Part shown: positions 34,570 through 61,456 of the stretch, one piece after another
Position numbering within the stretch: position 1 is the stretch's first letter
Layout of the letters: each line of letters starts with the position of its first letter
NCBI GenBank assembly: GCA_021108295.1
Contig: JAIORF010000005.1
Coordinates: 8,531-72,530 of the forward strand
From: a bacterium
Lineage (GTDB): Bacteria; Patescibacteriota; Dojkabacteria; SC72
Length of the DNA stretch: 64,000 bases
Reading direction: 5' to 3'
Program-made: the position numbers and the translations under genes
The notes under the pieces: model-generated
What the model was told of the DNA's origin: nothing
What the model saw: the letters and a program-made list of their open reading frames with translations, nothing else
The model's database searches: none

Positions 34570-34646
34570 TGGTGGGAGTAGATGGGCTTGAACCATCGAC
34601 CTCGGCTTTATAAGAACCGTGCTCTAACCACCTGAGCTATACTCCC
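34570..34646 (-). tRNA. tRNA-Ile with anticodon UAU (reads AUA).
   Basis: Reverse complement GGGAGTATAGCTCAGGTGGTTAGAGCACGGTTCTTATAAAGCCGAGGTCGATGGTTCAAGCCCATCTACTCCCACCA. Anticodon stem CGGTT/AGCCG, loop CTTATAA. The body is highly similar to bacterial tRNA-Ile(GAU). Confidence 0.7.
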
Positions 34647-34679: not shown

Positions 34680-37199
34680 CTAAAACCCCATTGGAGGGAA
34701 ACCACCACTCTTTGGTGCAGGTTTAACCTCTTTGTCTAGATCTGCTCTTCTCTTAATATCAGCATTAACCACATTAACATCCCTACCATACTTAGTCCTA
34801 GAAAGATTCTTAATAAGAGCAGAAGCCTCCTTATTAACCGTCATATCAAACCCTGACATAGGGAACTCACTACCATACAAAGTATTAAGAGAAAACGGAC
34901 CAGGATAGTTACCATTGCTAAGCATCTTCGCATAGTAATGACCCAAACCCTGATTAATCAAATCCCCAGCGGTAAGTATAGGGTCAAACTGAGGCTCTAA
35001 GAACTGACCATCCTCCGCACTACACCTTGAGATAAAGAGAGAACCCACATTACCAAATACAGCATCCTTAATGTTTTCTGGTAACTGCCCAATATACTGA
35101 TGAGCCATAGTCAAATTCAAACGATACTTCCTAGCTTCAGACAATATCGAACAAAAATCATCCGTTGCAAAATTCTGAAACTCATCAGCATAGAAAAAGA
35201 AATCCTTCCTCTGACCCTCCTCCACATCCTGCCTACTAAGTGCTGCTGCCAACATCTTCTGTACTAACAGAAGCCCCACAAAAGACATATTCTCCTCACC
35301 AAGAACTCCCTTAGAAAGATTTATGATAAGGATTTTTTGGTTATCCATTACATCTCTAAAATCAAAAGAGGATTTAGACTGACCAATGATATTCCTAATA
35401 GCTAAGTTGGTAGTAAACTTATCGAATTTGGAAATAAAGTAACCCAAACTCTCAGCCTTAGTCTTCTGATCGGTCTTAGCCACCTGATCTACCCAATATC
35501 TCTTTACCAACTCATCCTTGATGATAGGCAACCACTTATCCTTAACCCATTGCTCATCCTGTAAGACACGCACCACTTCGATAAGGGTAGAACCCTCCTC
35601 AGACATAACGGTAAGCATAGAATTACGTACAGCCTGTTGCATCATAGGACCAACAAACCCCTGATTATTCGGATCAAACATACGTAGAAGTAATGCAATA
35701 AAACTATTCACAATCTGATGCTTATGCTGCTCATTGTAATACTCCATAATATTTAGACCAAAAGGCCTATCAAAATCCCCGGCATTGAAATATATGACAT
35801 CCTCTACCCTCTCAGGAGGAATCCTCTCTAAAACCATCTCTGCAGTCTCACCGTGAGGATCGATAAAACAAACACCGTCACCATTGTAAATATCCTGCAC
35901 TATCATCCTAGTTAGAAGCCAAGACTTACCAGTACCTGTCTGACCAAGAATATATGAATGCCTCCTCCTATCAACCCTATTAAAACAAACCCTCTGCACC
36001 TTCCCCCTATACTCATTATTCCCCATCCATATCGTATCTATACTATCGATATCTTGACTAATCTCATTAGAAGCAGGTATCGCTCTAGAAAGTAGCCAAT
36101 GAATATTGGGAGTAGTGATCTCCTTGTTGGGGAAATGATACAGTGCTGCAAGCTCTTCAATATTTAACACAGTCTTACAATCTAGAGGAGTTCTCCTGTA
36201 GATAACATCATTCATAAAATCTTTTTCATCTTTCTTCTTAACCTTCTTCTTCTTCAGCTTATTAATCCCTGGATTACTAAACTGACTAAACGCACCTACA
36301 ATATTATCCAAATGCATCTTAGCTAATTCTTTACTCGGAGCACTAGCTACAATACGGATATCTGTAAGAAAACCAACCTTAGATATCTTCTTACTAATAT
36401 CCTGCATCTTCTCCTGAGACACCTCTATACGCTTCTTCTCAGGATCCGCATTATTAGACTCCACCTTACTCACAAACTTCTCACCATTCTTTCTCCACTT
36501 ACTACCTGCAGGAGACATCACTATCTGAATCATTGCACCCTCTCCATCTGACATCTTACTCATAGTGCTTAGGATATTTGAAAGAGGATCACCTTGAAAA
36601 TCTTCAGCAACTCTAATAGGGCAATAGTTGTCCTCCTCTAACTCCAACCTTGTATATTCTACATGCGTATTTTCATCAAATATATTGTAATCATTCACCT
36701 GCTTAACATCAGCATCTTGATATGATCCTAATATCTGCTTTTCTACTAACTCAGATAAATTCTTAGGACAGTGTACATAGAAACGTAACTCTCCGGGTAC
36801 AGCCATTATCTCAAAACTAATAGCATTGTTTACAGTAAAGTTCTCGGCTAAACCTTTCCCCCTACCCCCTATACTTGCTAAATTAGCAAACATCTTCTCA
36901 GCCTCCCCTATCTCTATCTCATTCACTCTAGGGACTCTTACTTCATAGAGTGTCCACTTCTTAGCTTTTTCATCTCTATCTTTCTTCTCAAGTTTCTTCT
37001 TAAGAACAAAGAAGAGAGCTATTAACATACCAAGGAACAGAAATACAAAGATTATCCATCCCCATGGAATATTTATATCATTAACATTGTAAGAATCTCT
37101 GGAATACTCAGTCTGTACACCTGGTAAAACAACATCAGAAGAAGGCGTAGGTCCCACCTGTGCAATTATTTCATCTTTAAGAAAATATTCTATACTCAT
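34680..37199 (-). CDS. T4SS-type P-loop ATPase, VirD4/TraG/TrwB-like coupling-protein family (VirB4 not excluded), with an N-terminal TM segment.
   Basis: TM WIIFVFLFLGMLIALFFVL. Walker A ILGQTGTGKSWLL is followed by FIDPHGE (DPxGE motif of VirB4/VirD4). Walker B/C-terminal motifs FFFYADEFQNF ... EARKYRLNLTMAHQYIGQL ... FGNVGSLFISR parallel the TraG/VirD4 LDEF..ARKYG..TQS..QL signatures. Confidence 0.65.
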   Translation of the reverse strand: MSIEYFLKDEIIAQVGPTPSSDVVLPGVQTEYSRDSYNVNDINIPWGWIIFVFLFLGMLIALFFVLKKKLEKKDRDEKAKKWTLYEVRVPRVNEIEIGEAEKMFANLASIGGRGKGLAENFTVNNAISFEIMAVPGELRFYVHCPKNLSELVEKQILGSYQDADVKQVNDYNIFDENTHVEYTRLELEEDNYCPIRVAEDFQGDPLSNILSTMSKMSDGEGAMIQIVMSPAGSKWRKNGEKFVSKVESNNADPEKKRIEVSQEKMQDISKKISKVGFLTDIRIVASAPSKELAKMHLDNIVGAFSQFSNPGINKLKKKKVKKKDEKDFMNDVIYRRTPLDCKTVLNIEELAALYHFPNKEITTPNIHWLLSRAIPASNEISQDIDSIDTIWMGNNEYRGKVQRVCFNRVDRRRHSYILGQTGTGKSWLLTRMIVQDIYNGDGVCFIDPHGETAEMVLERIPPERVEDVIYFNAGDFDRPFGLNIMEYYNEQHKHQIVNSFIALLLRMFDPNNQGFVGPMMQQAVRNSMLTVMSEEGSTLIEVVRVLQDEQWVKDKWLPIIKDELVKRYWVDQVAKTDQKTKAESLGYFISKFDKFTTNLAIRNIIGQSKSSFDFRDVMDNQKILIINLSKGVLGEENMSFVGLLLVQKMLAAALSRQDVEEGQRKDFFFYADEFQNFATDDFCSILSEARKYRLNLTMAHQYIGQLPENIKDAVFGNVGSLFISRCSAEDGQFLEPQFDPILTAGDLINQGLGHYYAKMLSNGNYPGPFSLNTLYGSEFPMSGFDMTVNKEASALIKNLSRTKYGRDVNVVNADIKRRADLDKEVKPAPKSGGFPPMGF

Positions 37200-37253
37200 A
37201 TTGAGTACAGTTTAGCATAGAAAATGGAAGTTGAGAATTTTATTTATACAAGA

Positions 37254-37577
37254 CTAATTATTACAAAAGGAATAACCAAATGGTACTGCTCCTTCTGATT
37301 TCTCCTTTACTAACCCAGAAAATGTTGTCTCTGTTACAGGGTCGTCGAGATCCTTCTGAGAAACTAAAGTCTCACTTACTGGTATATTTGCTTGAGCAAT
37401 AGCACTAGCACCACTTGCAATCTTTGGAGTTTGCGTATTCTCACCTACTTCAGCAGTTTTAGTAGGAACTACTCCTACACCCTCTAAACTTGAAGGTACT
37501 TCTACTTGAATAGGCTCTTGATTTGTTTCTATTGTATTTGGATCCATAGGAGCAGTCATCCTATTTAAATTACTCAT
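37254..37577 (-). CDS. Hypothetical small protein, low complexity.
   Basis: 107-aa ORF starting 11 nt downstream of the smpB stop. No recognisable motifs. Confidence 0.35.
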   Translation of the reverse strand: MSNLNRMTAPMDPNTIETNQEPIQVEVPSSLEGVGVVPTKTAEVGENTQTPKIASGASAIAQANIPVSETLVSQKDLDDPVTETTFSGLVKEKSEGAVPFGYSFCNN

Positions 37578-37588
37578 AACCTATAACA

Positions 37589-38032
37589 TTATACCATATA
37601 CTTTCTCTTCACTCTAGCCATATCCCTCTTTACATCCCTATCCTTCTCTACATTCTTCTTCTCATGTTTCCTCTTACCCTTCCCCAATCCTACTTGAACC
37701 TTAATAAGATTTCTAGTGGTATATACACTAACCGGTATTAAAGCTAACCTTCCCTGCTTAAGCTTGACCTCCAACTGATCTATTTCCCTTCTCTTCACAA
37801 GCAACCGTCTACTCCTAGCACTATCATAGTCAGGATTACCATCATACTTATACCTAGCAATATCTGCATTGACTAGCCATAATTGGTTATCAATAATCTT
37901 AACGTAAGCATCAGAAAGATTGCACCTACCGCCCCTGATAGACTTAACCTCTGCGCCAGTCAACACAATACCAGCCTCAAAGGTGTCCTTAATCTCATAA
38001 TTGAAATATGCTTTCTTATTAGTAATTTTCAT
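37589..38032 (-). CDS. smpB: SsrA-binding protein SmpB.
   Basis: Canonical SmpB sequence: KKAYFNYEIKDTFEAGIVLTGAEVKSIRGGRCNLSDAYV...DGNPDYDSARSRRLLVKRREI...GLGKGKRKHEKK. Confidence 0.9.
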   Translation of the reverse strand: MKITNKKAYFNYEIKDTFEAGIVLTGAEVKSIRGGRCNLSDAYVKIIDNQLWLVNADIARYKYDGNPDYDSARSRRLLVKRREIDQLEVKLKQGRLALIPVSVYTTRNLIKVQVGLGKGKRKHEKKNVEKDRDVKRDMARVKRKYMV

Positions 38033-38043
38033 ACACGATTATA

Positions 38044-40218
38044 CTACAAACCCATTCTCCATACATTATTACCATCAAGAATATACATATACTCCTCACT
38101 CCTGTCGATAACAATATCCTTCACATCACTCCACATATCTTCATCTGGACCCCTATACACATACTGATTAAGAAGAACTAACTGATCAGGATGCAATTTA
38201 TCATTATATGAGTCTCTCGGCTTTTCAAACCTTAAAATCCTCCTATTCGTACTATCAAACACATACAAACCAAATTCCTGATTTACAGTAGTATCACCAC
38301 AACACAAATCCCCAAGTTCTCCCTCTACACCAAGTATCTCAACTGGTCTAGGATCACCCGCAGTATATCTCAATATTCCACTATTCCCAGACGCAAGGGC
38401 ATAGATACTGAAATCTGCAAAAAAATCAGTAGTACCTACAAGCCCAGAATCCTCTACGGACTTTACAGTACTACTACTATACCCAGAACCATAGTTGACA
38501 CTCTTTGATATCTTCCCATTCACATTATCAAGATAGTAGAGGTTATCACCATAGACACCAAACTCAGCAACCATATCTATCTTAATATTCCCAATACCAG
38601 CCCCTATTATCCTCCTAAAAGACCTCCAGCCAGAATCCTGCTTAGAAGCCTTCACTACGCCAGACTGTGCATCAAAAATATAGATACTGGAATCCTCCCC
38701 AATGTCTACAAACATAGGCTCTTTTAAAAGCCCTTCATCATCTACTAGCTTCTCTTTCTTCTTTTCGAAAATTGATACACGATATACTTCACCTCTCCCC
38801 TTATCAGTAACTATCAATATCTCATTACCCGAATCATCGAGGATATATTTTATATCCATAAATTCAGAATTGTCCTCAAAAAAGCCAACCAAAGACTCTG
38901 GTGTAACTTCCACCCTCTTATACAAACTGTCCTCTACTCCCAAGGCTTCTTCCTCAAGGGTATGTAATCTGTCAATATATTCCTGATCTATACCATCAGG
39001 GACTTCAGAAAGAAGAGTGTTCACAGAGAACAGTATTACCTCAGCACCATCCCTATCTGTACTCAACTTCTCTTTAGCAATATCCAACTTACTCTCAGCC
39101 TCTTCAAACTTCTCTTCTGCTAAAACATGCAAATCTCTTAATTCTTTCTGTTTCCTTGTATATTGATAACCTCCTACTAGAAGTATGACAGCGAAGGTTG
39201 CCAATATCACTATCTTAAACCTTTTAATCTTCACATTCTTAACCTTGTACCCATCTATCCTCATATTAATTCTCTTACCGCTTCTCAGCCTCTTTTCAGA
39301 GACCTTTGCAGTATACTTCTTAAACCACGTCTTGTTACCAAACTTCTTAACTACCAATATATTTACCTTAGAAAAGGACTTCTTAAAGATTCCCACAATA
39401 TCACTACACTTCTTACTAAGAAAACTGTATCCCTTTTGGAATAGGGTAATAGCTTTTGTAATATATTTCTTAACCCCAATCTTCTTTACTTCAGGCTTAA
39501 TCTCCTTAGGTAAAATTACAGGAGAAACACTCTCTACACTCTTAGGGGTATTCTCTTTCACTACTGGTTCAGATTCTATCTTTATATCTCCCTCTGTATG
39601 AAGACACAACATTCCTTGGTCTGGAAGAAGAGTCTTACCCAACAAGTTTAATCCTTTCAATATCTCCCCTTTATCACCCTTCCCTACCAATACATGCATA
39701 TTTTCAGTAAGTAGAGACGATGTAGATACTACAACAAGGTCTTCGCTGTCTATAGAGAAGCCAGCTGTCTGAGCACTACTCTTTTCTAAAACATCTATAA
39801 TATTTACAATCTTTCCACCCTTGTAAACAAATATCTCGTTCTCCCCAAGGTTGGCAATATATACCCCTTCTTTGGTAGGAGCTATGATGACAAGACTAAT
39901 ATCTATCCCCCTCTGTTCCAAGCTCTTACTGTTACGCATCAATTCTTTTAATCTTCGTGTAAATTCTACAGTTGCTGCTTTAAGTGACTCTGAAATAGAT
40001 TTTGTACTAGAGTACATATAGCCTTCAACTACACCGTCCCAAGCCATATGGGCAACTCTCTCTGCTGGGAAATCTTGTTCACTTGATATCTCTAAAAGAG
40101 CATATAGTTCTCCCTCTTTTATAGATTTAACCCCTGAAGTCTTTACATATCTAAATACTCCAACAAAGGAGTTTCCTTTCTCACTATTCCTAATATATTT
40201 TACTGAAGTAACTGACAT
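38044..40218 (-). CDS. Hypothetical bitopic membrane protein (724 aa). The C-terminal half has four hYhhD blade-like repeats (beta-propeller-like).
   Basis: Central TM FKIVILATFAVILLVGGYQY. C-terminal repeats IYIFD, LYYLD, LYVFD and MYILD are spaced like propeller blades. No catalytic motif recognised. Confidence 0.55.
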   Translation of the reverse strand: MSVTSVKYIRNSEKGNSFVGVFRYVKTSGVKSIKEGELYALLEISSEQDFPAERVAHMAWDGVVEGYMYSSTKSISESLKAATVEFTRRLKELMRNSKSLEQRGIDISLVIIAPTKEGVYIANLGENEIFVYKGGKIVNIIDVLEKSSAQTAGFSIDSEDLVVVSTSSLLTENMHVLVGKGDKGEILKGLNLLGKTLLPDQGMLCLHTEGDIKIESEPVVKENTPKSVESVSPVILPKEIKPEVKKIGVKKYITKAITLFQKGYSFLSKKCSDIVGIFKKSFSKVNILVVKKFGNKTWFKKYTAKVSEKRLRSGKRINMRIDGYKVKNVKIKRFKIVILATFAVILLVGGYQYTRKQKELRDLHVLAEEKFEEAESKLDIAKEKLSTDRDGAEVILFSVNTLLSEVPDGIDQEYIDRLHTLEEEALGVEDSLYKRVEVTPESLVGFFEDNSEFMDIKYILDDSGNEILIVTDKGRGEVYRVSIFEKKKEKLVDDEGLLKEPMFVDIGEDSSIYIFDAQSGVVKASKQDSGWRSFRRIIGAGIGNIKIDMVAEFGVYGDNLYYLDNVNGKISKSVNYGSGYSSSTVKSVEDSGLVGTTDFFADFSIYALASGNSGILRYTAGDPRPVEILGVEGELGDLCCGDTTVNQEFGLYVFDSTNRRILRFEKPRDSYNDKLHPDQLVLLNQYVYRGPDEDMWSDVKDIVIDRSEEYMYILDGNNVWRMGL

Positions 40219-40227
40219 ACAACTACT

Positions 40228-40482
40228 TTAGAGTAGAATTAATATGAATGCTAATATCCCACCTCCTATAGATACAAAGATATTCAGCATTATCATTTGT
40301 TTTGTAATATCATTCTTAGCAACATGGAGAGTATCTCTAAGTACTCTAACCTTAAGGATGAGCATAAAGGCGTAGAAGATAATGGCAAAGAGTAAAATCC
40401 CTACAAAGAGTTTCATTGCCCCATCAGCGAATGAAAAACCTGGGTTAAAGTCAGTGTACATACTTGTATATTCAATATCCAT
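40228..40482 (-). CDS. Small membrane protein (84 aa, two TM segments).
   Basis: Hydrophobic segments LFVGILLFAIIFYAFMLIL and IFVSIGGGILAFILILL. Confidence 0.45.
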   Translation of the reverse strand: MDIEYTSMYTDFNPGFSFADGAMKLFVGILLFAIIFYAFMLILKVRVLRDTLHVAKNDITKQMIMLNIFVSIGGGILAFILILL

Positions 40483-40491
40483 ATTTCCTCC

Positions 40492-41118
40492 TTACAACTT
40501 CCCCTTGTGGGTAAGTTCTACTAAATTATCGATAACATCCTGAACATCTCTTGGGCAAGGTACAAAGGTAAGCGTCAGGTCAACTCCTTCTCCTGCAGTA
40601 TCTATATACATATTTCCAAGATCAAGCATTGAGCTAAGTGGTCCTACACTGTCATGGCTAACATCTTGAACTTTTCTCCAGAGGATTTCTATATAGTCGT
40701 GCTGAAATACGTTTGCAACCGTTAAAGCAACAATTTTCTTATCCGTGATTATAGAAACATTGTAGTACCACTGCATAAAGGCTGTCACCAAGATGTTTGC
40801 AGATATCACTACAGACACAACAAAGAGTCCTAAATACAAAGTAGTACCACCGTAGGTATCAGAAATCTTGTGTGTAACAAGAAGCAGAACTAATGGTACT
40901 ATTAAAACAATTAGGGCTAGGAGTACGTGAGCAAGGTATGCAATCCAGTGTCTTCGAACAACAAGTATAACTTCTTCATCTTGAGCTTTTCTTGCAAACC
41001 CAACATTCTTAGGAAAAAGCTTTAAGGTTCTATCTTCCTCTTTTCCATTTGCAAGATTATTTATAAAGGTAAATTCCTTATTCCTAAACTTCTTTGGTAT
41101 GCTTGTTTTCTGTGCCAT
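40492..41118 (-). CDS. Membrane protein with a bacterial PH-like (YdbS/YdbT-type) topology.
   Basis: A hydrophobic hairpin (VLLALIVLIVPLVLLLV ... LYLGLFVVSVVISANILVTAF) is followed by a ~90-aa soluble domain, as in bPH_2 proteins. Confidence 0.5.
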   Translation of the reverse strand: MAQKTSIPKKFRNKEFTFINNLANGKEEDRTLKLFPKNVGFARKAQDEEVILVVRRHWIAYLAHVLLALIVLIVPLVLLLVTHKISDTYGGTTLYLGLFVVSVVISANILVTAFMQWYYNVSIITDKKIVALTVANVFQHDYIEILWRKVQDVSHDSVGPLSSMLDLGNMYIDTAGEGVDLTLTFVPCPRDVQDVIDNLVELTHKGKL

Positions 41119-41210
41119 AGTATATATTAAGATATCACAGAACTAGCTTCAGGACAAGGAATTAAGGGGTACTAATATGCACTTTAAAAGCCTTCGTGGC
41201 CTCCTATTCT

Positions 41211-43061
41211 CTAATTCTTCTCAACATTGACATGCACAAACCCACTCTGAGGAATTCTTAGATGACCAGGGGCTCTCATATTGTAAATTGTTTTGAAATC
41301 ATTACCACTCATAGAGAATGATCCTGCGTTAGTGTAGAAAGTTACATTGCTTGTAGATCCATTACTGCTAGTTGAAACAGAGGTAGATACAGATGTAACA
41401 GGTTTAGCAGCTAAGTTTCTTAATTCAGAATGAGAGTAAGGGTTGGCACCTGATGGAGGATTTCCTCTTAAACGACAAGGATCGTTGATCGTGATAGGGA
41501 CGATTCTACTATCACTCCTATTATGCGCAACCCATACCTGATACGCATTGATAATGTCTGACATTTCTGCCTGAGTTAACCAAGGATTACGGTAACAACT
41601 ATCCCAATTTACAGAATTACCATAGGTATATGAATACCTATACCATGTCTTGTAAAACCAAGATACTCCAGAAATACTGTCATATGCATTAGCCATCCAA
41701 TCACCATTCCCATTCCCAGTAGTAGTATCCCAACCAGATGTATTACTCCACCCACCATGTACAGCTGCATATTGAGTAGACGAAGGCCTTCCAGCAGAGT
41801 CAGTAAGTATCACTCCCCTTGTTGCCTCTACAGCATCTGCCCAAGCTCCAGTTTTCTTAGTTGTACCTACAACTTGGCAATATTCATTCGTACATATTGA
41901 CCTATCTCCATTCCCTGTGTAATTAACAGCGTAGGTTCTTGCAGCAATAACTTGGGCCTTAAGTGCTTCCAAAGGGAAATATTCTGGCATTTCACCAAGC
42001 CTTAAGAGATAATCATCCTCAAAGTTTAGTGTTCCATATGTTGTTGTTGAAATATTGGTCATAATGTTCTCTGGGCTACTGTGTATTAACACTGTACCTG
42101 TTCGAAGAGTCTTGCCAGGATAGTATTGATTCAGTAACTGAGTATAACTCTGCCCTGCATCTGCTCTAGCTCTTGCCCCCCACTGACTCATACCATTCCT
42201 GTGTGTATATGCACCAACAGAGAACACTGCGAAAGTATTGCTAGGAGCATTGGCCCTAAACCCAGCCAAAGAACCATTAACATCCGAACTACTAGCAGGT
42301 ACCGAATTACTATTCACATTTGTACCACCCTGCCTTACTATCAACAACTGATACTGCAAGTCAGACAGCTCTGCCTTAAGACCATTCACTGTCCTACTCA
42401 CCAAATCCCTACTATTGTACTTCTCATTCAACTCACTCTGTAACTTGTTCTTCTCTGCCATCAAAAGATCGTAAGAATCATCCAGCTCTCCCCTCTGCTC
42501 ATCTAACTCCTTCTTCTCGTCCTCTAACTCCTGTTTAAGATTATTCAAACTCTCAAACTCTCCAGTAATCCCTGCAATCTCATCCTTAAGTACAGATATT
42601 GCAGTCCTTTTTATGTAATACGATTGCATTACATCCTCTATACGACCACTTGAGAAAAGGAAATCTACAGAACTAACCCTACTCTCCATGTATAGTTGAC
42701 TAGATATCGAAGAAAGAGAACCCTTCTTCTCAAGCAGGATTTTTTCCTTAGCCTCTATCTCCTCCAACTTCTCATCTATCTCTTCGTCCTTAGTATCTAT
42801 CTCTTCTTGCATATCACTAATCTCACTATTAAGAAGGTCAATCTTTTGAGTAACCGAGTAATTGCTATTGGAAATTTCAGAAATCCTAGCCTCAATACTT
42901 TCCAAAAGAGACTCGTTCTCCTCTAACTCATCCTGTGTATCCCCTATCTCATCCTCTAAGTCATCTTCAGCACCAGAGTAGACAAAACTATATTGCGAAA
43001 AGAAAAAGAAGGAAAGGATTATTAAAAAGAAAGATAGTTGTAATATTGGCAGTTTTCTCAT
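41211..43061 (-). CDS. Secreted coiled-coil protein with a SpoIID/LytB-type peptidoglycan-remodelling domain.
   Basis: Signal/TM FFLIILSFFFFSQYSFVYS, long acidic coiled coil, then TFAVFSVGAYTHRNGMSQWGARARADAGQSYTQLLNQYYPG containing the SpoIID/LytB GMSQWGA signature. Confidence 0.7.
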   Translation of the reverse strand: MRKLPILQLSFFLIILSFFFFSQYSFVYSGAEDDLEDEIGDTQDELEENESLLESIEARISEISNSNYSVTQKIDLLNSEISDMQEEIDTKDEEIDEKLEEIEAKEKILLEKKGSLSSISSQLYMESRVSSVDFLFSSGRIEDVMQSYYIKRTAISVLKDEIAGITGEFESLNNLKQELEDEKKELDEQRGELDDSYDLLMAEKNKLQSELNEKYNSRDLVSRTVNGLKAELSDLQYQLLIVRQGGTNVNSNSVPASSSDVNGSLAGFRANAPSNTFAVFSVGAYTHRNGMSQWGARARADAGQSYTQLLNQYYPGKTLRTGTVLIHSSPENIMTNISTTTYGTLNFEDDYLLRLGEMPEYFPLEALKAQVIAARTYAVNYTGNGDRSICTNEYCQVVGTTKKTGAWADAVEATRGVILTDSAGRPSSTQYAAVHGGWSNTSGWDTTTGNGNGDWMANAYDSISGVSWFYKTWYRYSYTYGNSVNWDSCYRNPWLTQAEMSDIINAYQVWVAHNRSDSRIVPITINDPCRLRGNPPSGANPYSHSELRNLAAKPVTSVSTSVSTSSNGSTSNVTFYTNAGSFSMSGNDFKTIYNMRAPGHLRIPQSGFVHVNVEKN

Positions 43062-43073
43062 TACACAATTATC

Positions 43074-43442
43074 CTACATTCCCACTATGTAATCAACTAG
43101 ACCTTGAATCAACAAACCAACGAGAAGAAGAAGTACCAAACCAATGATGGCCCAAGTAAGAGTCGCTTGTGCTTGTTTTATTTTCTCAGGATCTCCTGCA
43201 GAAGACATCCACTTATACCCACCAAGGATTACCATGAGGACGGCAAGTAGTATACCAAGAGGAACAAGACTGTCAATAAGACTATCAAAGTTATCAAACA
43301 GATCCGCTAACTTCGGTGGAGAGTAGGTAGAGGAACTCATGTCCTCTCTCTCCCAGGGTTGCAATAGTTCATTCGGCCGAGCCGATGGAGCTGACGGAGT
43401 CGGTGGAGATGTTGTACTGGCAATAATAGCGTTAAACTTCAT
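43074..43442 (-). CDS. TrbC/VirB2-like T4SS pilin-family protein (CPR T4SS_pilin type), paralog 1. ORF open to 43454; the Met at 43442 avoids overlap.
   Basis: Two TM helices flank LGGYKWMSSAGDPEKIKQAQATLTWAIIGLVLLLLVGLL. This is the conserved core G-Y-x-(W/F/Y)-(I/M)-x-S-A-G-D-P-E-K shared with the four neighbouring paralogs. Confidence 0.7.
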   Translation of the reverse strand: MKFNAIIASTTSPPTPSAPSARPNELLQPWEREDMSSSTYSPPKLADLFDNFDSLIDSLVPLGILLAVLMVILGGYKWMSSAGDPEKIKQAQATLTWAIIGLVLLLLVGLLIQGLVDYIVGM

Positions 43443-43443
43443 C

Positions 43444-43716
43444 TTATATTCCAATATTTAATTGATCTACTACAAACTTCACCAAAAGCGGAGCAACAAA
43501 CACTATTACCAAACCAATCAATGCAAACATTAAAGACTTAGTTGCACTCTGTATCTTGTCCTCATCACCCATTGCAAAGATATATTTGAAACCAGAAATG
43601 ATTAGAGCCACAACAGCAAGTAATACAGACAAACCTATTGCATAATTCAAAACATATTGAATAAAGGCTTCAAGGTTCTCATACGTTGTTGGATTAGTAA
43701 CAATACTAAAGTCCAT
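43444..43716 (-). CDS. TrbC/VirB2-like pilin-family protein, paralog 2.
   Basis: IISGFKYIFAMGDEDKIQSATKSLMFALIGLVIVFV flanked by TM helices. Confidence 0.7.
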   Translation of the reverse strand: MDFSIVTNPTTYENLEAFIQYVLNYAIGLSVLLAVVALIISGFKYIFAMGDEDKIQSATKSLMFALIGLVIVFVAPLLVKFVVDQLNIGI

Positions 43717-43728
43717 ATAACTCCTTTC

Positions 43729-44073
43729 CTATTCTGCTACCCCTTGTCCAAGAATATCTGATAATACAAAGGTTACTAACATCGCTGCTACAAAACAGAT
43801 TACCAAACCAATGATTGCAAATGTTAATGACTTTGTTGCTTTCTCAACCTTGGCTTCGTCACCACCAGCGGTAATGTACATATAACCAGAAGCGATTAGA
43901 ATTGCTACACATGCTACAGCTGCAGTACCTACTGCAAAGTTAAGACCATCCTTAACAAATTCCCCAAGAGTCCCACTTACTGTATCAATCTCAACAATAT
44001 CAACCAACTGTGCAGATACTGTACTAAGTGCTAGAACTGGATATGTTGCTAATGTTGCTAATATCTTTTTCAT
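43729..44073 (-). CDS. TrbC/VirB2-like pilin-family protein, paralog 3, with a signal peptide.
   Basis: MKKILATLATYPVLALSTVSA ... ILIASGYMYITAGGDEAKVEKATKSLTFAIIGLVICFVAAMLV. Confidence 0.7.
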   Translation of the reverse strand: MKKILATLATYPVLALSTVSAQLVDIVEIDTVSGTLGEFVKDGLNFAVGTAAVACVAILIASGYMYITAGGDEAKVEKATKSLTFAIIGLVICFVAAMLVTFVLSDILGQGVAE

Positions 44074-44139
44074 AAATAGATAATTATAAATAATTTATAT
44101 AGTATAGATTTTATCAAACATAACTAATTATATCAATAT

Positions 44140-44475
44140 CTAACCTGTATAACCAACAAACTCCAATAACCATTTGACCACCATTCCTGCAATCCAGACT
44201 ACCACTAAACCAACCACAGCACCCGTTAAAGTCCTCTGCCCCTGCTCTGCCTTCTCTGGATCCCCTGCAGAAAAAATAAAGGTATAACCACCAACAATAA
44301 TCATTGCAACTGCCACTACAGAACCCAAACCTATTAAAACATTAATCAAAGAAGTGGCATCATCAAAAACATCTTTGATAGACAACCACTTACCATCAAT
44401 AGGGACATCTACATTAACACCACCAATGATGACAAAAAGCCTCTTATTTAAATACTTTGTTATTTTCTTCCTCAT
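44140..44475 (-). CDS. TrbC/VirB2-like pilin-family protein, paralog 4.
   Basis: MIIVGGYTFIFSAGDPEKAEQGQRTLTGAVVGLVVVWIAGMVV. Confidence 0.7.
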   Translation of the reverse strand: MRKKITKYLNKRLFVIIGGVNVDVPIDGKWLSIKDVFDDATSLINVLIGLGSVVAVAMIIVGGYTFIFSAGDPEKAEQGQRTLTGAVVGLVVVWIAGMVVKWLLEFVGYTG

Positions 44476-44477
44476 AC

Positions 44478-44819
44478 CTATGTCCCACTAATATTAAGAT
44501 CAAAAACATTGGAGATTAGAAGTAGTATTGCTACTGAAAGAAGTATAAATACTAAACCAACCACAGCATTCGTAATCATCTCCTTCGCATCATTAAGCTT
44601 CTCTGGATTACCCTGACTTGTAATCATCTTAAGACTAGCCCCTACTATTAAAAGGATAGCCACAATCCCTGCCAAAGGCATCGCTATCTTTACAATTGTT
44701 CCTACGATATCACCGACACCACTCTGCCCTTCTAATTCAGTAACCTGATTGAGAGTATCAGACAGTGTACTAGCATATACTTTTGTAATTATTCTATTCA
44801 TATCTCGTATTATACACAA
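44478..44819 (-). CDS. TrbC/VirB2-like pilin-family protein, paralog 5.
   Basis: LLIVGASLKMITSQGNPEKLNDAKEMITNAVVGLVFILLSVAILLLI. Separated from paralog 4 by 2 nt. Confidence 0.65.
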   Translation of the reverse strand: MCIIRDMNRIITKVYASTLSDTLNQVTELEGQSGVGDIVGTIVKIAMPLAGIVAILLIVGASLKMITSQGNPEKLNDAKEMITNAVVGLVFILLSVAILLLISNVFDLNISGT

Positions 44820-44996: not shown

Positions 44997-45866
44997 TTAC
45001 TTGGCTAACTTCTTCATCATCTTAATTTCCTCTTCCATTGTATCATTAGTTTTGAGTGCAGGAGTTTCTAGTATGAATGGGATATTCTTAAACTCTTTCC
45101 TATGTAAAATCTTTTTTACAGTTTTAATCCCCAACTCCCCCTCCCCTAGATTTGCATGCCTATCTTTGTTCGATGAGAGTTTGGTCAAGGAGTCGTTAAG
45201 GTGTATTGCCTTAACATTTGACATTCCCAATTCTCTATCCATATCCTCGATTACACTGTCCATTTCATTCACCCAATCATATCCTGCTACATATGTGTGT
45301 TGTGTGTCCATTACAAAACCCACTCTTTTCTTGTCTTCTACACCTTCTCTCATTAGTTTTAATTCTGTAAAGCTTCTACCCAGATTCTTACCCGTTCCCG
45401 CTGTTGTCTCTATCAGTAGCTTCTGTTTACCTTCTACCTTTTCCAACACCCAGTTCATACCGTAAGAGATTCTTTCAATGCTGTCTTCGTATGAGAGTTC
45501 TTTTTGGGATCCTGGATGGAAGCATACTCCCAATATTTCACAATCAATATTGTTTTTCTCAATTAGTTCCCCTACTCTTTCTGCGAAGTCTAGGTATATG
45601 ACTAATCCCATCTTACTAAGGTGGAAGAGTTTCTTGTCTTTTCTAGCTAAATTGGTTAGATATATTCCATGTAGTAATATTTTCTTTAGATTGGATGTTT
45701 TGAGTTGTTCTACAAACTTTTCAATGTTTTCTTGGGGTATTAGTTTAATAGCCCATCTCATTGGTGGTGTAGGCATCATTTGTATTGTATTGATGTTGTA
45801 CTTGTCAGCAGTTTTAATTGCATTTTCTATTCCTCCTGCTGTTGATACGTGTGCTCCTAGATACAT
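44997..45866 (-). CDS. nfo: Endonuclease IV (apurinic/apyrimidinic endonuclease).
   Basis: MYLGAHVSTAGGIENAI..., HGIYLTNL, CFHPGS, LLIETTAGTG, FVMDTQHTYVAGYD, AIHLNDS, DRHANLGEGELG. These are the canonical Nfo metal-binding motifs in order. Confidence 0.9.
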   Translation of the reverse strand: MYLGAHVSTAGGIENAIKTADKYNINTIQMMPTPPMRWAIKLIPQENIEKFVEQLKTSNLKKILLHGIYLTNLARKDKKLFHLSKMGLVIYLDFAERVGELIEKNNIDCEILGVCFHPGSQKELSYEDSIERISYGMNWVLEKVEGKQKLLIETTAGTGKNLGRSFTELKLMREGVEDKKRVGFVMDTQHTYVAGYDWVNEMDSVIEDMDRELGMSNVKAIHLNDSLTKLSSNKDRHANLGEGELGIKTVKKILHRKEFKNIPFILETPALKTNDTMEEEIKMMKKLAK

Positions 45867-57911: not shown

Positions 57912-58330
57912 TGGTGGAGACGATGGGAATTGAACCCATGTCCAAAAGCGTCATCAATAGTTATGTACAAAAATAGTTAATCTTGATTAGCAAAATATAC
58001 CTAAAAGATTAACGAAAAAGTATATATGCTTAGAACTTAGTTTCTTACATACCCTCTTCTAAATTAAGAATATGTATATATCCTACAAACGACTGTTTAT
58101 TAAAACCTGTATAGGTGCAAGTAATAAAAACACTAACCTAAACTAATAAGTTAGACTTATGCAAATTGGTAAGCATAAACAGGAGCTGCAAAAGCAGTTT
58201 TTACTGTATCAGCTACACCACTTACAAAAGCGTTCAAACGATTTGTTACACTTATCTGTGTTCAGTTAACGAGATGAACTCGATTTGAAACATACTGAAT
58301 CTAAACTTCTGTCGAAAGCCTAGCGTCCCC
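57912..58330 (-). ncRNA. ssrA: tmRNA (ssrA).
   Basis: 5' end GGGGACGCTAGGCTTTCGACAG... and 3' end ...GGACATGGGTTCAATTCCCATCGTCTCCACCA form a tRNA-Ala-like acceptor (GGGGACG/CGTCTCC) with the G3·U70 wobble and a T-arm ATGGG-TTCAATT-CCCAT. An internal short ORF ends ...GCAGCTCCTGTTTATGCTTACCAATTTGCATAA, a candidate tag. Length about 419 nt. Confidence 0.75.
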
Positions 58331-60787: not shown

Positions 60788-61456
60788 ATGAATATCCTAA
60801 TTATAGAGGAAAGTAAAACAATAGCCCAATTGATTAGTAAGTCTCTCTCTGCTCAAGGGTTTAATATAACATTAGATGATAGTGGGTTTACTAATGAAGT
60901 TTTTGTTAAAAAAGGTCTTTTTGAAATTGTTGTACTTAATACCAACTTACCTAAGGATCGTACAAAGAGAATTATAGAAAAGGTCAAGGCTTTGAATATT
61001 AATATTAAAATATTAGGAATATGTAGTCTTGGAGGATGGAAGGATAAGGTAAGCTTTTTAAAAGATGGTGGTGATGATGTAGTCTCCTACCCTTTCCCTA
61101 TTCAAGAATTAGTTGCAAGAATCTGGTCATTACAAAGACGTCCTAGATCATATATTGATGAAAAACTCTATATTGGAGAATATCTATTGGATAAAGACAA
61201 CCTTCTTGCGAGTAGTAGTGAAAAAGATGTAAAGCTTAGAAGAAAAGAATTTCAATTACTAGAATATCTCATTAAGAACAAGGATAGGACAGTAAGTAGG
61301 TGTGAATTACATGATCATGTATGGGATTACAGAGAGTACTTAGGTTCAAATACTGTGGATGTACATATAAAGAGGATACGAGAAAAGCTAGATAAGAGTC
61401 ACTTAATAGAAACTATACATGGGCAGGGTTATAAGGTTGTCAATCGTAGAAGCTAG
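60788..61456 (+). CDS. OmpR/PhoB-family winged-helix response regulator with an atypical receiver domain (Asn at the phospho-acceptor position).
   Basis: C-terminus RKEFQLLEYLIKNKDRTVSRCELHDHVWDYREYLGSNTVDVHIKRIREKL...IETIHGQGYKV is a canonical OmpR-type wHTH. The receiver has EIVVLNTNLP where LDLMLP(D) is expected, and EE in place of the N-terminal DD pair. Confidence 0.8.
   Translation: MNILIIEESKTIAQLISKSLSAQGFNITLDDSGFTNEVFVKKGLFEIVVLNTNLPKDRTKRIIEKVKALNINIKILGICSLGGWKDKVSFLKDGGDDVVSYPFPIQELVARIWSLQRRPRSYIDEKLYIGEYLLDKDNLLASSSEKDVKLRRKEFQLLEYLIKNKDRTVSRCELHDHVWDYREYLGSNTVDVHIKRIREKLDKSHLIETIHGQGYKVVNRRS

What the first reader, a model, noticed from the sequence alone, without database searches (positions are those of the whole stretch)
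34680..44819. T4SS-like cluster: five tandem VirB2/TrbC-family pilin paralogs, a SpoIID/LytB cell-wall remodelling protein, membrane proteins and a VirD4/VirB4-family ATPase, with smpB embedded
Five consecutive small genes (90-126 aa) all encode two hydrophobic helices around a conserved G-Y-x-[WFY]-[IM]-x-S/A-G-[DN]-[PE]-[ED]-K core, with divergent N-terminal extensions (one with a signal peptide). They are immediately followed, on the same strand with 1-12 nt spacers, by a secreted coiled-coil SpoIID/LytB-domain protein (GMSQWGA motif), which could be a functional analogue of the VirB1 lytic transglycosylase. Next come a bPH-like membrane protein, a small membrane protein and a 724-aa bitopic propeller-like protein. 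After smpB and a 107-aa ORF comes an 839-aa membrane ATPase with Walker A, DPHGE and ARKY..TMAHQ motifs of T4SS coupling/energising ATPases. This matches the minimal T4SS-like machinery reported in Patescibacteria, thought to act in DNA uptake or host interaction. The pilin gene amplification, the SpoIID substitution for VirB1, and smpB riding in the operon are unusual here.
Basis: partly seen in the sequence, partly recalled or inferred. Interest (0 to 1): 0.75.

Follow-up and report, generated by a model that had tools for sequence, protein, structure and literature searches.

The report
Dojkabacteria pilin array beside coupling ATPase
This is the Candidatus Dojkabacteria version of the already described Patescibacteria array of VirB2-like pilin genes, joined to a cell-wall-cutting SpoIID enzyme and lying next to a VirD4-type coupling ATPase; it is not a complete secretion system, because the VirB4 motor is not in the window.

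Summary
Twelve co-directional minus-strand genes lie at the stated coordinates. All five small proteins pass Pfam T4SS_pilin (PF18895). The 616-aa protein is a SpoIID/LytB protein.

I found no VirB4, VirB3, VirB6 or VirB8 in the 64-kb window, so this is not a self-contained T4SS.

Tandem arrays of 2-11 divergent VirB2-like pilins in Patescibacteria are already published, as are coupling-protein genes lying far from virB4. smpB sits in this position across the whole class.

Points that appear new:
- The five pilins are ancient orthologue groups kept in fixed order across Dojkabacteria, not a recent amplification.
- Pilins and SpoIID are present together or absent together.
- The SpoIID domain is circularly permuted.
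- An unrelated SpoIID protein sits next to pilins in a second lineage.
- Outside Dojkabacteria the ATPase sits among housekeeping genes.

Verdict: a new member of a known kind, of moderate interest.

The parts
44478..44819 (-). T4SS pilin, slot 1 (113 aa from the TTG start; an ATG at 44801 would give 107 aa)
   Evidence: PF18895 gives 37 bits against a threshold of 26.6. It has two hydrophobic helices. It belongs to the slot-1 orthologue group across Dojkabacteria.
44140..44475 (-). T4SS pilin, slot 2 (111 aa)
   Evidence: PF18895 gives 44 bits. It starts 2 nt after slot 1. It belongs to the slot-2 orthologue group.
43729..44073 (-). T4SS pilin, slot 3 (114 aa), with an N-terminal Sec-type signal peptide
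   Evidence: PF18895 gives 42 bits and NF045849 gives 42.5 bits against a cut-off of 40. A third N-terminal hydrophobic segment spans residues 13-28. It follows a 66-nt AT-rich spacer containing a promoter-like site at 44136-44108 (the scan as a whole was not above chance). This slot is the most conserved (52% identity between genomes) and the one that duplicates.
43444..43716 (-). T4SS pilin, slot 4 (90 aa, core only)
   Evidence: PF18895 gives 50 bits, TrbC PF04956 gives 31.3 bits against 27.9, and NF045849 gives 45.3 bits. The protein in this slot is 89-92 aa long in nearly all relatives.
43074..43454 (-). T4SS pilin, slot 5 (126 aa from the TTG start; more likely 122 aa from the ATG at 43442), with a Pro/Ser/Thr-rich N-terminal extension
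   Evidence: PF18895 gives 44 bits. The start-codon context was read. It belongs to the slot-5 orthologue group.
41211..43061 (-). Secreted or membrane-anchored coiled-coil protein with a circularly permuted SpoIID/LytB domain (616 aa); candidate peptidoglycan glycan-strand-cleaving enzyme
   Evidence: PF08486 gives 51 bits and TIGR02669 gives 99 bits. In the alignment to C. difficile SpoIID, query residues 278-317 match chain residues 285-324, while query residues 350-388 (containing GEM with Glu357) match chain residues 68-108. The two segments are therefore in swapped order. The same order is seen in other Dojkabacteria. SpoIID is present with the pilins in 44 of 47 loci and absent with them in 2 of 47.
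40492..41118 (-). Membrane protein with two transmembrane helices and a weak bacterial PH domain (208 aa)
   Evidence: bPH_2 and bPH_3 score 17.6-17.8 bits, below their thresholds. Relatives carry a precomputed weak bPH_2 hit. It is conserved in every Dojkabacteria locus, including those without pilins.
40228..40482 (-). Small membrane protein of the DUF5657 family (84 aa)
   Evidence: PF18901 gives 22.6 bits against a threshold of 25 here. Orthologues carry a precomputed PF18901 hit.
38044..40218 (-). Bitopic 724-aa protein: cytoplasmic PP2C-like fold, one membrane helix, extracellular helical stalk and a six-bladed NHL/PknD-like propeller; candidate envelope sensor
   Evidence: The AlphaFold2 model has a mean pLDDT of 76.9. 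Foldseek matches DFPase and Pizza propellers and the PP2C phosphatases PstP and STP. A sequence profile matches Pizza and PknD. It evolves fast, at 35% identity where the ATPase is 70%. A homologue lies next to the ATPase in a Moranbacteria locus (E 3e-9).
37589..38032 (-). smpB, the housekeeping partner of tmRNA
   Evidence: PF01668 gives 164 bits. It occupies the same position in all Dojkabacteria loci. tmRNA is at 57912-58330.
37254..37577 (-). Small, poorly conserved ORF (107 aa) that looks low in complexity on reading
   Evidence: It has no Pfam hit. An ORF of 88-384 aa occupies this position in 76 loci with almost no conserved columns. It is not homologous to the ~137-aa protein that precedes the ATPase in other CPR lineages (hhalign probability 0.1).
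34680..37199 (-). 839-aa membrane-anchored ATPase: N-terminal helix, DUF8128 domain and a VirD4-type type IV coupling-protein NTPase domain

Best explanation
The region is a composite locus conserved across the class Candidatus Dojkabacteria (Patescibacteria). It is not a self-contained secretion system.

Module A is five VirB2-like T4SS pilins plus a secreted, circularly permuted SpoIID-type enzyme. The five pilins are ancient and non-redundant, each kept in its own slot. This suggests a filament built from several specialised subunits (a major pilin plus minor or tip pilins) rather than antigenic variants.

Inferred mechanism for module A:
- The pilins insert into the membrane as two-helix hairpins.
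- They are extracted and polymerised by the VirB4-based, monoderm-type T4SS that Dojkabacteria encode elsewhere.
- SpoIID cuts glycan strands locally, so that the filament or channel can cross the wall.
- The filament serves contact with, or uptake from, a host cell.

Module B is a bPH membrane protein, DUF5657, a PP2C-fold/propeller membrane protein, smpB, a small ORF and the DUF8128-VirD4-type ATPase. It is an older syntenic block. The ATPase is the CPR-wide coupling-protein homologue, and it belongs to a family that works beside VirB4 and a PF18895 pilin on haloarchaeal plasmids. Whether it serves this pilus in Dojkabacteria is not shown.

Shown: gene identities, fold classes, orthology and synteny. 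Inferred: pilus assembly, the role of SpoIID, and any coupling of the ATPase to the pilins.
For: Identity of the parts:
- All five pilins pass PF18895.
- The SpoIID family models are passed and the catalytic-region Glu is retained.
- The ATPase is VirD4-like by sequence profile, by fold and by homology to the VirD4-like gene, not the VirB4-like gene, of haloarchaeal plasmid T4SS clusters that also carry a PF18895 pilin.

Ancient, slot-specific pilins:
- Identity between genomes within the same slot is 41-52%. Between different slots it is 27-28%.
- The nearest neighbour shares the slot in 186 of 190 cases.
- The copy number is five in 30 of 40 loci.

Two modules:
- 44 of 47 Dojkabacteria loci have pilins, SpoIID and the core block.
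- Two deep-branching loci lack both pilins and SpoIID but keep bPH through the ATPase, with hrcA-grpE-dnaK or a glycosyltransferase upstream instead.

Independent SpoIID-pilin adjacency:
- In one other lineage, an Amidase_2+SpoIID protein with the canonical domain order lies directly before two pilins.

Not a complete T4SS:
- No VirB4, VirB3, VirB6 or VirB8 was detected in 64 kb.
- The Dojkabacteria genomes readable in the published survey's table are VirB4-positive.

Published context:
- Pilin arrays and coupling-protein genes distant from virB4 are described in PMC12102498.
- The pilin array is essential in Southlakia (PMC10633639).
- Tubular structures that may be T4SS pili were seen at a parasite-host interface (bioRxiv 10.64898/2026.06.21.733656).
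Against: - No experiment or transcript data bear on this genome.
- The VirB4 locus of this organism was not seen; only a 64-kb window was available.
- Synteny within Dojkabacteria extends into plain housekeeping genes (xer, divIC, efp, ftsH, polA), so adjacency within the class is weak evidence of shared function.
- The second SpoIID-pilin case rests on one lineage, represented by two loci.
- The promoter and terminator scans were no better than shuffled sequence, so operon limits are unknown.
- Only one pilin has a clear signal peptide.
- Conservation by slot would also fit five membrane proteins that never polymerise.
Confidence: 0.62

Rival explanations
1. The whole run from the first pilin to the ATPase is one functional, minimal T4SS-like machine. 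The VirD4-like ATPase, with the bPH, DUF5657 and 724-aa membrane proteins as a platform, assembles the pilus or moves substrates without a nearby VirB4.
For: - The run is tight and co-directional, with spacers of 1-92 nt.
- The order is conserved in 44 of 47 Dojkabacteria loci.
- The ATPase, a SpoIID protein and pilins recur within 8 kb in a distant lineage.
- The trio of pilin, DUF8128 and VirD4-like ATPase also occurs on haloarchaeal plasmids.
Against: - In 46 non-Dojkabacteria loci with at least 6 kb of flank, only one has pilins. That is about the rate expected by chance for a window of this size.
- The usual neighbours of the ATPase there are map, adk, dnaX, ndk, pyrH, xer and divIC.
- Deep-branching Dojkabacteria keep the ATPase block without pilins or SpoIID.
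- On the haloarchaeal plasmids a separate VirB4-like ATPase is present, so the VirD4-like protein is not the only motor there.
- The coupling-protein homologue was reported as non-essential in Southlakia, while the T4SS genes were essential (PMC12102498).
Confidence: 0.15
2. The ATPase block has nothing to do with pili. The DUF8128-VirD4-like protein is a core CPR DNA or macromolecule translocase with a housekeeping role, for example chromosome handling together with the neighbouring Xer recombinase and the divisome protein DivIC, or DNA uptake. It merely sits next to the pilin module in this class.
For: - The family is very large and CPR-wide: 4,626 clusters at 50% identity score E <= 1e-30, with members in Levy-, Woese-, Pace- and Moranbacteria.
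- It is highly conserved, at 67-92% identity within the class, while its neighbours fall to 35%.
- The published survey found coupling-protein homologues in 2,918 of 3,035 genomes, nearly all far from virB4.
- Xer and DivIC lie just downstream in nearly all Dojkabacteria loci and in 7 of 43 other loci with enough flank.
- Its other neighbours are housekeeping genes.
Against: - Its only homologues found in a defined genetic context lie in plasmid T4SS clusters.
- Xer-DivIC adjacency is seen in a minority of loci outside the class.
- No DNA-binding gamma domain or other FtsK-specific feature was detected; PF01580 appeared in only one homologue.
Confidence: 0.18
3. The five small proteins are not filament subunits. 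They are two-helix membrane proteins with another role, for example holin-like or envelope-organising. SpoIID acts in ordinary wall growth or division, so the locus is a general envelope-biogenesis cluster.
For: - Only one of the five has a recognisable signal peptide.
- Four of the five fall below the TrbC threshold.
- Fixed, non-redundant slots would also suit subunits of a membrane complex.
- SpoIID homologues in other bacteria act in sporulation and cell-wall remodelling (established knowledge).
Against: - All five pass the curated PF18895 threshold.
- Members of the same family sit in plasmid T4SS clusters next to VirB4 and VirD4 homologues.
- NCBIfam relates them to the pilin-like gene of Mycoplasma ICEs.
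- In Southlakia the homologous array lies inside the essential T4SS cluster (PMC10633639).
Confidence: 0.05

Closest known systems
Patescibacteria T4SS with VirB2-like pilin arrays (Southlakia epibionticum SEML1_0006-0019, Wang et al. 2023, PMC10633639; survey by Quinonero-Coronel et al. 2025, PMC12102498)
   Same: - Tandem, sequence-divergent PF18895/VirB2-like pilins. Paralogues here share 16-27% identity with the first pilin and average 28% within a genome, against a published mean of 25%.
- The locus is chromosomal and lies near the replication origin (dnaN is 17 kb away).
- There is no relaxase nearby.
- A non-VirB1 wall hydrolase lies next to the system.
   Different: - Here the array is not beside VirB4, VirB3, VirB6 or TrsD. 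It sits beside the VirD4-like coupling-protein homologue, which the survey found near virB4 in only 148 of 5,713 cases.
- The wall enzyme is a SpoIID domain, which that survey's text and the supplementary text held here do not mention.
- The survey suggested that pilin diversity aids adaptation to different hosts. Here the five types are ancient and fixed in order.
Haloarchaeal plasmid T4SS clusters (Halorussus limi NZ_CP096663; Halomontanus rarus NZ_CP135526)
   Same: They carry a PF18895 pilin, a DUF8128 protein and a VirD4-like ATPase. These are homologous to the window's pilins and to the two halves of the 839-aa protein: 25% identity (E 7e-21) for DUF8128 and 29% identity (E 4e-35) for the ATPase.
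   Different: - They are plasmid-borne.
- DUF8128 is a separate gene.
- A VirB4-like ATPase (CD1110 family, E 1e-52) lies in the same cluster.
- They have no SpoIID, bPH, DUF5657 or propeller protein.
- They carry one pilin, not five.
Mycoplasma ICE conjugation genes (NCBIfam NF045849, the Mbov_0395/MMCAP2_0565 pilin-like protein)
   Same: Two of the five pilins pass the NF045849 cut-off and the other three match below it. Both systems are of the monoderm type.
   Different: The ICE genes belong to a mobile element with a VirB4 (Mbov_0397 family) beside them. The window's ATPase matches that VirB4 model only at the P-loop (18 bits against a cut-off of 590).
VirD4/TrwB/DotL type IV coupling proteins
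   Same: - Conserved Walker A and B motifs.
- PF02534 above its threshold.
- TrwB and DotL are the best sequence-profile matches in the PDB.
- A membrane anchor at the N-terminus.
   Different: - One predicted membrane helix, instead of the two usually described for VirD4-type proteins (from my own knowledge).
- A ~270-residue DUF8128 domain lies between the anchor and the NTPase domain.
- It is chromosomal, near-universal in CPR, and usually has no T4SS genes or relaxase nearby.
SpoIID of Bacillus and Clostridioides (lytic transglycosylase of sporulation), and VirB1 as the T4SS wall hydrolase
   Same: The SpoIID family models are passed, and the GEM catalytic region and the GMSQxGA motif are conserved. 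Like VirB1, it is a glycan-strand-cleaving enzyme encoded beside pilin genes.
   Different: - The domain is circularly permuted and preceded by a ~230-residue coiled coil.
- The organism does not sporulate.
- It is not homologous to VirB1 (no SLT or CHAP domain).

Membership tests
T4SS pilin (Pfam PF18895; VirB2/TrbC class) | Score above the curated PF18895 threshold | tested here: met
   All five score 37.0-50.2 bits against 26.6.
T4SS pilin (Pfam PF18895; VirB2/TrbC class) | Score above the TrbC/VirB2 (PF04956) threshold | tested here: inconclusive
   Only slot 4 passes (31.3 against 27.9). The others score 16.6-21.0 bits.
T4SS pilin (Pfam PF18895; VirB2/TrbC class) | Small protein with two hydrophobic helices joined by a short polar loop | tested here: met
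   The alignment and hydropathy analysis show this in all five, with invariant Gly and Lys in the loop.
T4SS pilin (Pfam PF18895; VirB2/TrbC class) | Cleaved signal peptide and polymerisation into a pilus by a VirB4-dependent machine | not testable with these tools
   Only slot 3 has a clear signal peptide. Processing and assembly need experiments.
Complete T4SS (monoderm MPF-FATA / Patescibacteria clade) | VirB4 ATPase, the hallmark of every T4SS, encoded in the cluster | tested here: not met
   No ORF of 100 aa or more in the window that I scanned matches a VirB4 family. tblastn with a haloarchaeal VirB4-like protein finds nothing in the window. The published table scores the Dojkabacteria genomes I could read as VirB4-positive, so VirB4 is presumably elsewhere in this genome.
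Complete T4SS (monoderm MPF-FATA / Patescibacteria clade) | Membrane translocon parts VirB3/PrgI, VirB6/PrgH, VirB8/PrgL and TrsD | tested here: not met
   There are no Pfam or NCBIfam hits to these in the cluster. The only TrbL match is a weak sub-threshold hit inside pilin 4. Very divergent versions cannot be excluded.
Complete T4SS (monoderm MPF-FATA / Patescibacteria clade) | VirB1-type wall hydrolase (SLT and/or CHAP domain) | tested here: not met
   No SLT or CHAP domain is present. A SpoIID-domain protein occupies that position.
VirD4-type type IV coupling protein | NTPase domain matching the T4SS-DNA_transf and TrwB models, with Walker A and B motifs | tested here: met
   PF02534 gives 37 bits against 20.1. 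TrwB_AAD_bind gives 16.6 bits, below its threshold of 20.5, but it is precomputed for most homologues. The motifs are invariant.
VirD4-type type IV coupling protein | Fold of TrwB/DotL/Cag-beta rather than FtsK | tested here: met
VirD4-type type IV coupling protein | Corresponds to the VirD4 gene, not the VirB4 gene, in systems that have both | tested here: met
   On the Halorussus plasmid it matches the CD1115/TraD-like gene (E 4e-35). It shows no BLASTP similarity to the CD1110 VirB4-like gene (best E 2.8).
VirD4-type type IV coupling protein | Works with a T4SS and a relaxase or other substrate | not testable with these tools
   There is no relaxase or T4SS core in the window. Function needs genetics.
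SpoIID/LytB | PF08486 and TIGR02669 above their thresholds, with the catalytic-region Glu | tested here: met
   PF08486 gives 51.2 bits against 23 and TIGR02669 gives 99.3 bits against 83.3. Glu357 in GEM aligns with the GEM of C. difficile SpoIID.
SpoIID/LytB | Canonical order of the domain segments | tested here: not met
   The C-terminal GMSQxGA segment (residues 278-317) precedes the N-terminal catalytic segment (residues 350-388). The same order holds in other Dojkabacteria, whereas loci L086 and L168 have the canonical order.

The most novel reading that the evidence does not exclude
In Dojkabacteria, and independently in at least one Microgenomatia-like lineage, VirB2-like pilins, a SpoIID-type wall-cutting enzyme and the DUF8128-VirD4-like ATPase may form a VirB4-independent filament or transport module. 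In this reading the coupling-protein homologue, helped by the bPH, DUF5657 and PP2C-fold/propeller membrane proteins, is itself the assembly or translocation motor, and the five fixed pilin types build a heteropolymeric filament. That would be a new minimal architecture within the T4SS superfamily. It would also give a function to a near-universal CPR protein that has none so far.
Probability: 0.1. Interest if true: 0.75.

Novelty: new member of a known kind. Interest (0 to 1): 0.35.

Why it matters
VirB2-like pilin arrays are among the few envelope systems shown to be essential for the epibiotic life of Patescibacteria, and what they do is unknown. This locus adds three testable points.

1. 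In a whole class the five pilins are old, distinct and kept in a fixed order. That argues for specialised subunits rather than interchangeable variants.
2. A SpoIID-type enzyme travels with the pilins. It is a concrete candidate for the missing wall-opening activity.
3. The near-universal CPR coupling-protein homologue is a fusion of DUF8128 with a VirD4-like NTPase. Its split counterparts sit in haloarchaeal plasmid T4SS clusters, which ties an orphan core protein to a defined machine.

None of this changes the current picture of Patescibacteria T4SS. It refines it.

Tried and rejected
- **Homology between the 107-aa ORF and the ~137-aa protein that precedes the ATPase in other CPR lineages.** hhalign probability 0.1. 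Rejected.
- **Homology between the 724-aa protein and the large unknown proteins upstream of the ATPase in loci L085, L086 and L168.** Only the 763-aa protein of L085 matched (E 3e-9).
- **Promoter and terminator scan to set operon limits.** Counts did not differ from shuffled sequence.
- **Attachment-site repeats flanking the 32-kb insert.** Nothing longer than 12 nt.
- **Exact look-up of the window's ATPase, to name the source assembly.** Not on record.
- **Literature searches for DUF8128, and for SpoIID together with 'Candidate Phyla Radiation'.** No papers.
- **Reaching other classes with the genome-collection scan.** All 80 loci returned were Dojkabacteria. Other classes were reached only through the representative search plus a profile search.
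- **Other genes of the haloarchaeal cluster.** They have no counterpart in the window.

Full report
**1. What is there**

Between 44819 and 34680 the minus strand carries twelve consecutive ORFs. They are five small proteins, a 616-aa protein, three membrane proteins (208, 84 and 724 aa), smpB, a 107-aa ORF and an 839-aa ATPase. The run is bounded upstream by nfo (44997-45866) and downstream by a tRNA-Ile gene (34570-34646). The spacers are 2, 66, 12, 1, 12, 92, 9, 9, 11, 11 and 54 nt, taking the ATG start at 43442 for pilin 5.

Homologues of the ATPase are named Candidatus Dojkabacteria or candidate division WS6 by their sources. dnaN at 61453-62577 places the window next to the replication origin.

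**2. The pilins**

All five small proteins pass the curated threshold of Pfam PF18895 T4SS_pilin (37-50 bits against 26.6). One also passes TrbC/VirB2. Two pass NCBIfam NF045849, the pilin-like conjugal transfer protein of Mycoplasma ICEs.

Each has two hydrophobic helices around a short loop with invariant Gly and Lys. The other four pilins share 16-27% identity with the first. Only slot 3 has a clear signal peptide.

**3. The ATPase**

Pfam gives T4SS-DNA_transf (37 bits against 20.1) and DUF87. The precomputed domains of its database cluster add PF26449 DUF8128 at the N-terminus.

Sequence and fold evidence:
- A 60-sequence profile finds TrwB (E 2e-7) and DotL (E 4e-5) as the best solved relatives, with HerA far weaker.
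- The AlphaFold2 model is good (mean pLDDT 84.8, pTM 0.74).

The protein therefore belongs to the VirB4/VirD4/HerA clade and not to FtsK. Fold alone cannot separate VirB4 from VirD4.

Haloarchaeal plasmids settle that question. The nearest plasmid-borne relatives are in haloarchaea, at 26-27% identity over residues 113-828. On the Halorussus limi and Halomontanus rarus plasmids the gene order is:
- a PF18895 pilin;
- three unknown genes;
- a VirB4-like ATPase (NCBIfam CD1110 family, E 1e-52);
- a separate 376-aa protein homologous to our residues 113-368 (E 7e-21);
- a VirD4-like ATPase homologous to our residues 386-774 (E 4e-35).

Our protein shows no BLASTP similarity to the VirB4-like gene. 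The 839-aa protein is thus a fusion of DUF8128 with a VirD4-type coupling protein.

**4. The other proteins**

- **616-aa protein.** It passes PF08486 and TIGR02669. It starts with a signal or anchor sequence and a coiled coil of about 230 residues.
- **Its SpoIID domain is permuted.** In the alignment to C. difficile SpoIID, the normally C-terminal GMSQxGA segment (residues 278-317) comes before the normally N-terminal catalytic segment containing GEM (residues 350-388). The domain is therefore circularly permuted. Other Dojkabacteria share this order.
- **724-aa protein.** It has no Pfam match. Its model (mean pLDDT 77) shows a cytoplasmic PP2C-like fold, one membrane helix, a helical stalk and a six-bladed NHL/PknD-like propeller. 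It looks like a transmembrane sensor. One PP2C metal-binding motif seems to be replaced, so it may be a pseudophosphatase. I did not resolve this.
- **208-aa protein.** It is a two-helix membrane protein with a weak bPH domain.
- **84-aa protein.** It is a sub-threshold DUF5657 match.

**5. Conservation within the class**

A scan of one genome per species returned 80 loci, all Dojkabacteria, with 54-92% ATPase identity. The order is essentially invariant: [pilins] - SpoIID - bPH - DUF5657 - 724-aa protein - SmpB - small ORF - ATPase - Xer (opposite strand) - DivIC.

- Of 47 loci with enough upstream sequence, 44 have everything.
- One locus has a fragmented SpoIID.
- Two deep-branching loci lack both pilins and SpoIID but keep bPH through the ATPase. 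Upstream they have hrcA-grpE-dnaK or a glycosyltransferase instead.
- Pilin copy number is five in 30 of 40 loci and ranges from 4 to 8; one locus has none.

Pilins and SpoIID therefore behave as one unit (module A) and the remaining genes as another (module B). smpB in this position is a class-wide feature.

**6. The pilins are ancient and slot-specific**

Across 38 genomes with five pilins:
- proteins in the same slot are 41-52% identical between genomes;
- proteins in different slots are 27-28% identical, whether within or between genomes;
- the nearest neighbour has the same slot in 186 of 190 cases.

Extra copies are mostly duplicates of slot 3. This is not a recent amplification, and it does not fit simple antigenic variation. 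It fits five specialised subunits.

**7. Outside the class**

The ATPase family is very large. There are 4,626 clusters at 50% identity with E <= 1e-30, and members occur in Levy-, Woese-, Pace- and Moranbacteria.

I examined 85 loci from other lineages. The recurrent neighbours of the ATPase are:
- a ~137-aa unknown protein directly upstream;
- Xer and DivIC downstream, in 7 of 43 loci with enough flank;
- housekeeping genes such as map, adk, dnaX, ndk and pyrH.

My pilin profile found pilins in 1 of 46 loci with adequate flank. That is about what chance would give for a 10-20 kb window in an ~800-kb genome (my own rough estimate, not a computed test). The precomputed Pfam tables agreed where both were available.

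The positive cases are L086 and L168, which share their flanking genes and look like one lineage. There the ATPase is followed by one or two unknown genes, an Amidase_2+SpoIID protein of about 1,040 aa, and two pilins. That SpoIID has the canonical segment order. It was therefore recruited next to pilins independently of the Dojkabacteria enzyme.

**8. What is missing**

None of the ORFs of 100 aa or more that I scanned (all but one truncated ORF at the window's end and ORFs nested inside longer genes) matches VirB4, VirB3, VirB6, VirB8, TrsD or a relaxase. tblastn with the haloarchaeal VirB4-like protein finds nothing in the window or in the 80 Dojkabacteria loci.

The published survey lists Dojkabacteria genomes. 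The two entries I could read in the cut copy of its Table S1 are scored VirB4-positive. The motor is therefore presumably encoded elsewhere, and this cluster is not a self-contained T4SS.

**9. What is already known**

Quinonero-Coronel et al. 2025 (PMC12102498) report:
- VirB4 in 2,417 of 3,035 Patescibacteria genomes;
- 441 arrays of 2-11 VirB2-like pilins with a mean identity of 25%;
- 5,713 VirD4-like coupling-protein homologues in 2,918 genomes, only 148 of them near virB4;
- the suggestion that other glycosidases replace VirB1.

Wang et al. 2023 (PMC10633639) showed that the pilin array and T4SS of Southlakia are essential for epibiotic growth. A 2026 preprint reports tubular structures that may be T4SS pili at a parasite-host interface.

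SpoIID, smpB and DUF5657 are absent from the survey's main text, and SpoIID, PF08486 and PF18901 are absent from the supplementary text held here. No paper in the library mentions DUF8128, or SpoIID together with 'Candidate Phyla Radiation'.

**10. Most likely mechanism**

Shown: the identities, folds, orthology and synteny above.

Inferred:
- The pilins insert as helical hairpins and are polymerised by the distant VirB4 machine into a filament made of several subunit types.
- The SpoIID enzyme opens the glycan strands for it.
- The filament serves host contact or uptake.

The ATPase is the coupling-protein homologue of this T4SS lineage. Whether it feeds substrates to this filament, acts alone, or has been put to another use is open. 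The rivals are scored in the report sections.

**11. Verdict**

This is a new member of a known kind. Four details appear new and are testable: the fixed pilin slots, the pilin-SpoIID unit, the permuted SpoIID, and the DUF8128-VirD4 fusion with its split haloarchaeal counterpart.

Noticed in passing
window 2619-34516: A block of about 32 kb separates the ATPase from Xer (1293-2189) and DivIC (714-1331). In about 70 other Dojkabacteria loci those two genes are the ATPase's immediate neighbours. The block holds four giant surface proteins with YadA-head repeats and a Peptidase_S74 chaperone domain (2,838, 3,586, 910 and 1,192 aa). It also holds a BRO-N protein, Ig-like and dockerin proteins and a GNAT. 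The 92%-identical relative L004 shares it in part. No flanking repeat longer than 12 nt was found.
   Followed up: partly
window 34570-34646 (-): A tRNA-Ile gene with anticodon UAU lies directly after the ATPase, at the edge of the 32-kb block. From memory, most bacteria read AUA with a lysidine-modified CAU tRNA, so a UAU tRNA-Ile is uncommon.
   Followed up: no
window 41211-43061 (-), residues 278-388: The SpoIID domain is circularly permuted: the usually C-terminal GMSQxGA segment precedes the catalytic GEM segment. The order is conserved in Dojkabacteria but not in the SpoIID proteins of L086 and L168.
   Followed up: partly
L169 (NZ_CP096663.1 92947-113296) and L171 (NZ_CP135526.1 45738-68201): Haloarchaeal plasmids carry a conserved T4SS-like cluster. 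It has a PF18895 pilin, a CD1110-type VirB4-like ATPase, a stand-alone DUF8128 protein and a VirD4-like ATPase, followed by a protein with an NrS-1 polymerase domain. PLSDB types these plasmids as non-mobilizable.
   Followed up: partly
window 38044-40218 (-): The 724-aa protein combines a PP2C-like fold, a membrane helix and a PknD-like NHL propeller. The PP2C 'SDG' motif appears as 'STS', so it may be a pseudophosphatase. A homologue lies beside the ATPase in a Moranbacteria locus (L085 12604-14895).
   Followed up: partly
window 57912-58330 (-): A tmRNA gene with a 30-residue tag peptide lies 20 kb from smpB in the same window.
   Followed up: no
window 46038-48374 and 48424-50784 (-): Two adjacent paralogous ~780-aa membrane-anchored proteins, each with a Laminin_G_3 (concanavalin-like) domain and an acidic low-complexity stretch, lie just upstream of the pilin array beyond nfo and tRNA-Ser.
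   Followed up: no
L084-L168, gene directly upstream of the ATPase: In 16 of 18 non-Dojkabacteria loci that carry it, a conserved ~137-aa protein with no Pfam match sits immediately before the DUF8128-VirD4 gene. In several loci a DUF5663 protein and a large unknown protein of 715-963 aa lie just upstream of that. This may be the true conserved partner set of the ATPase.
   Followed up: partly
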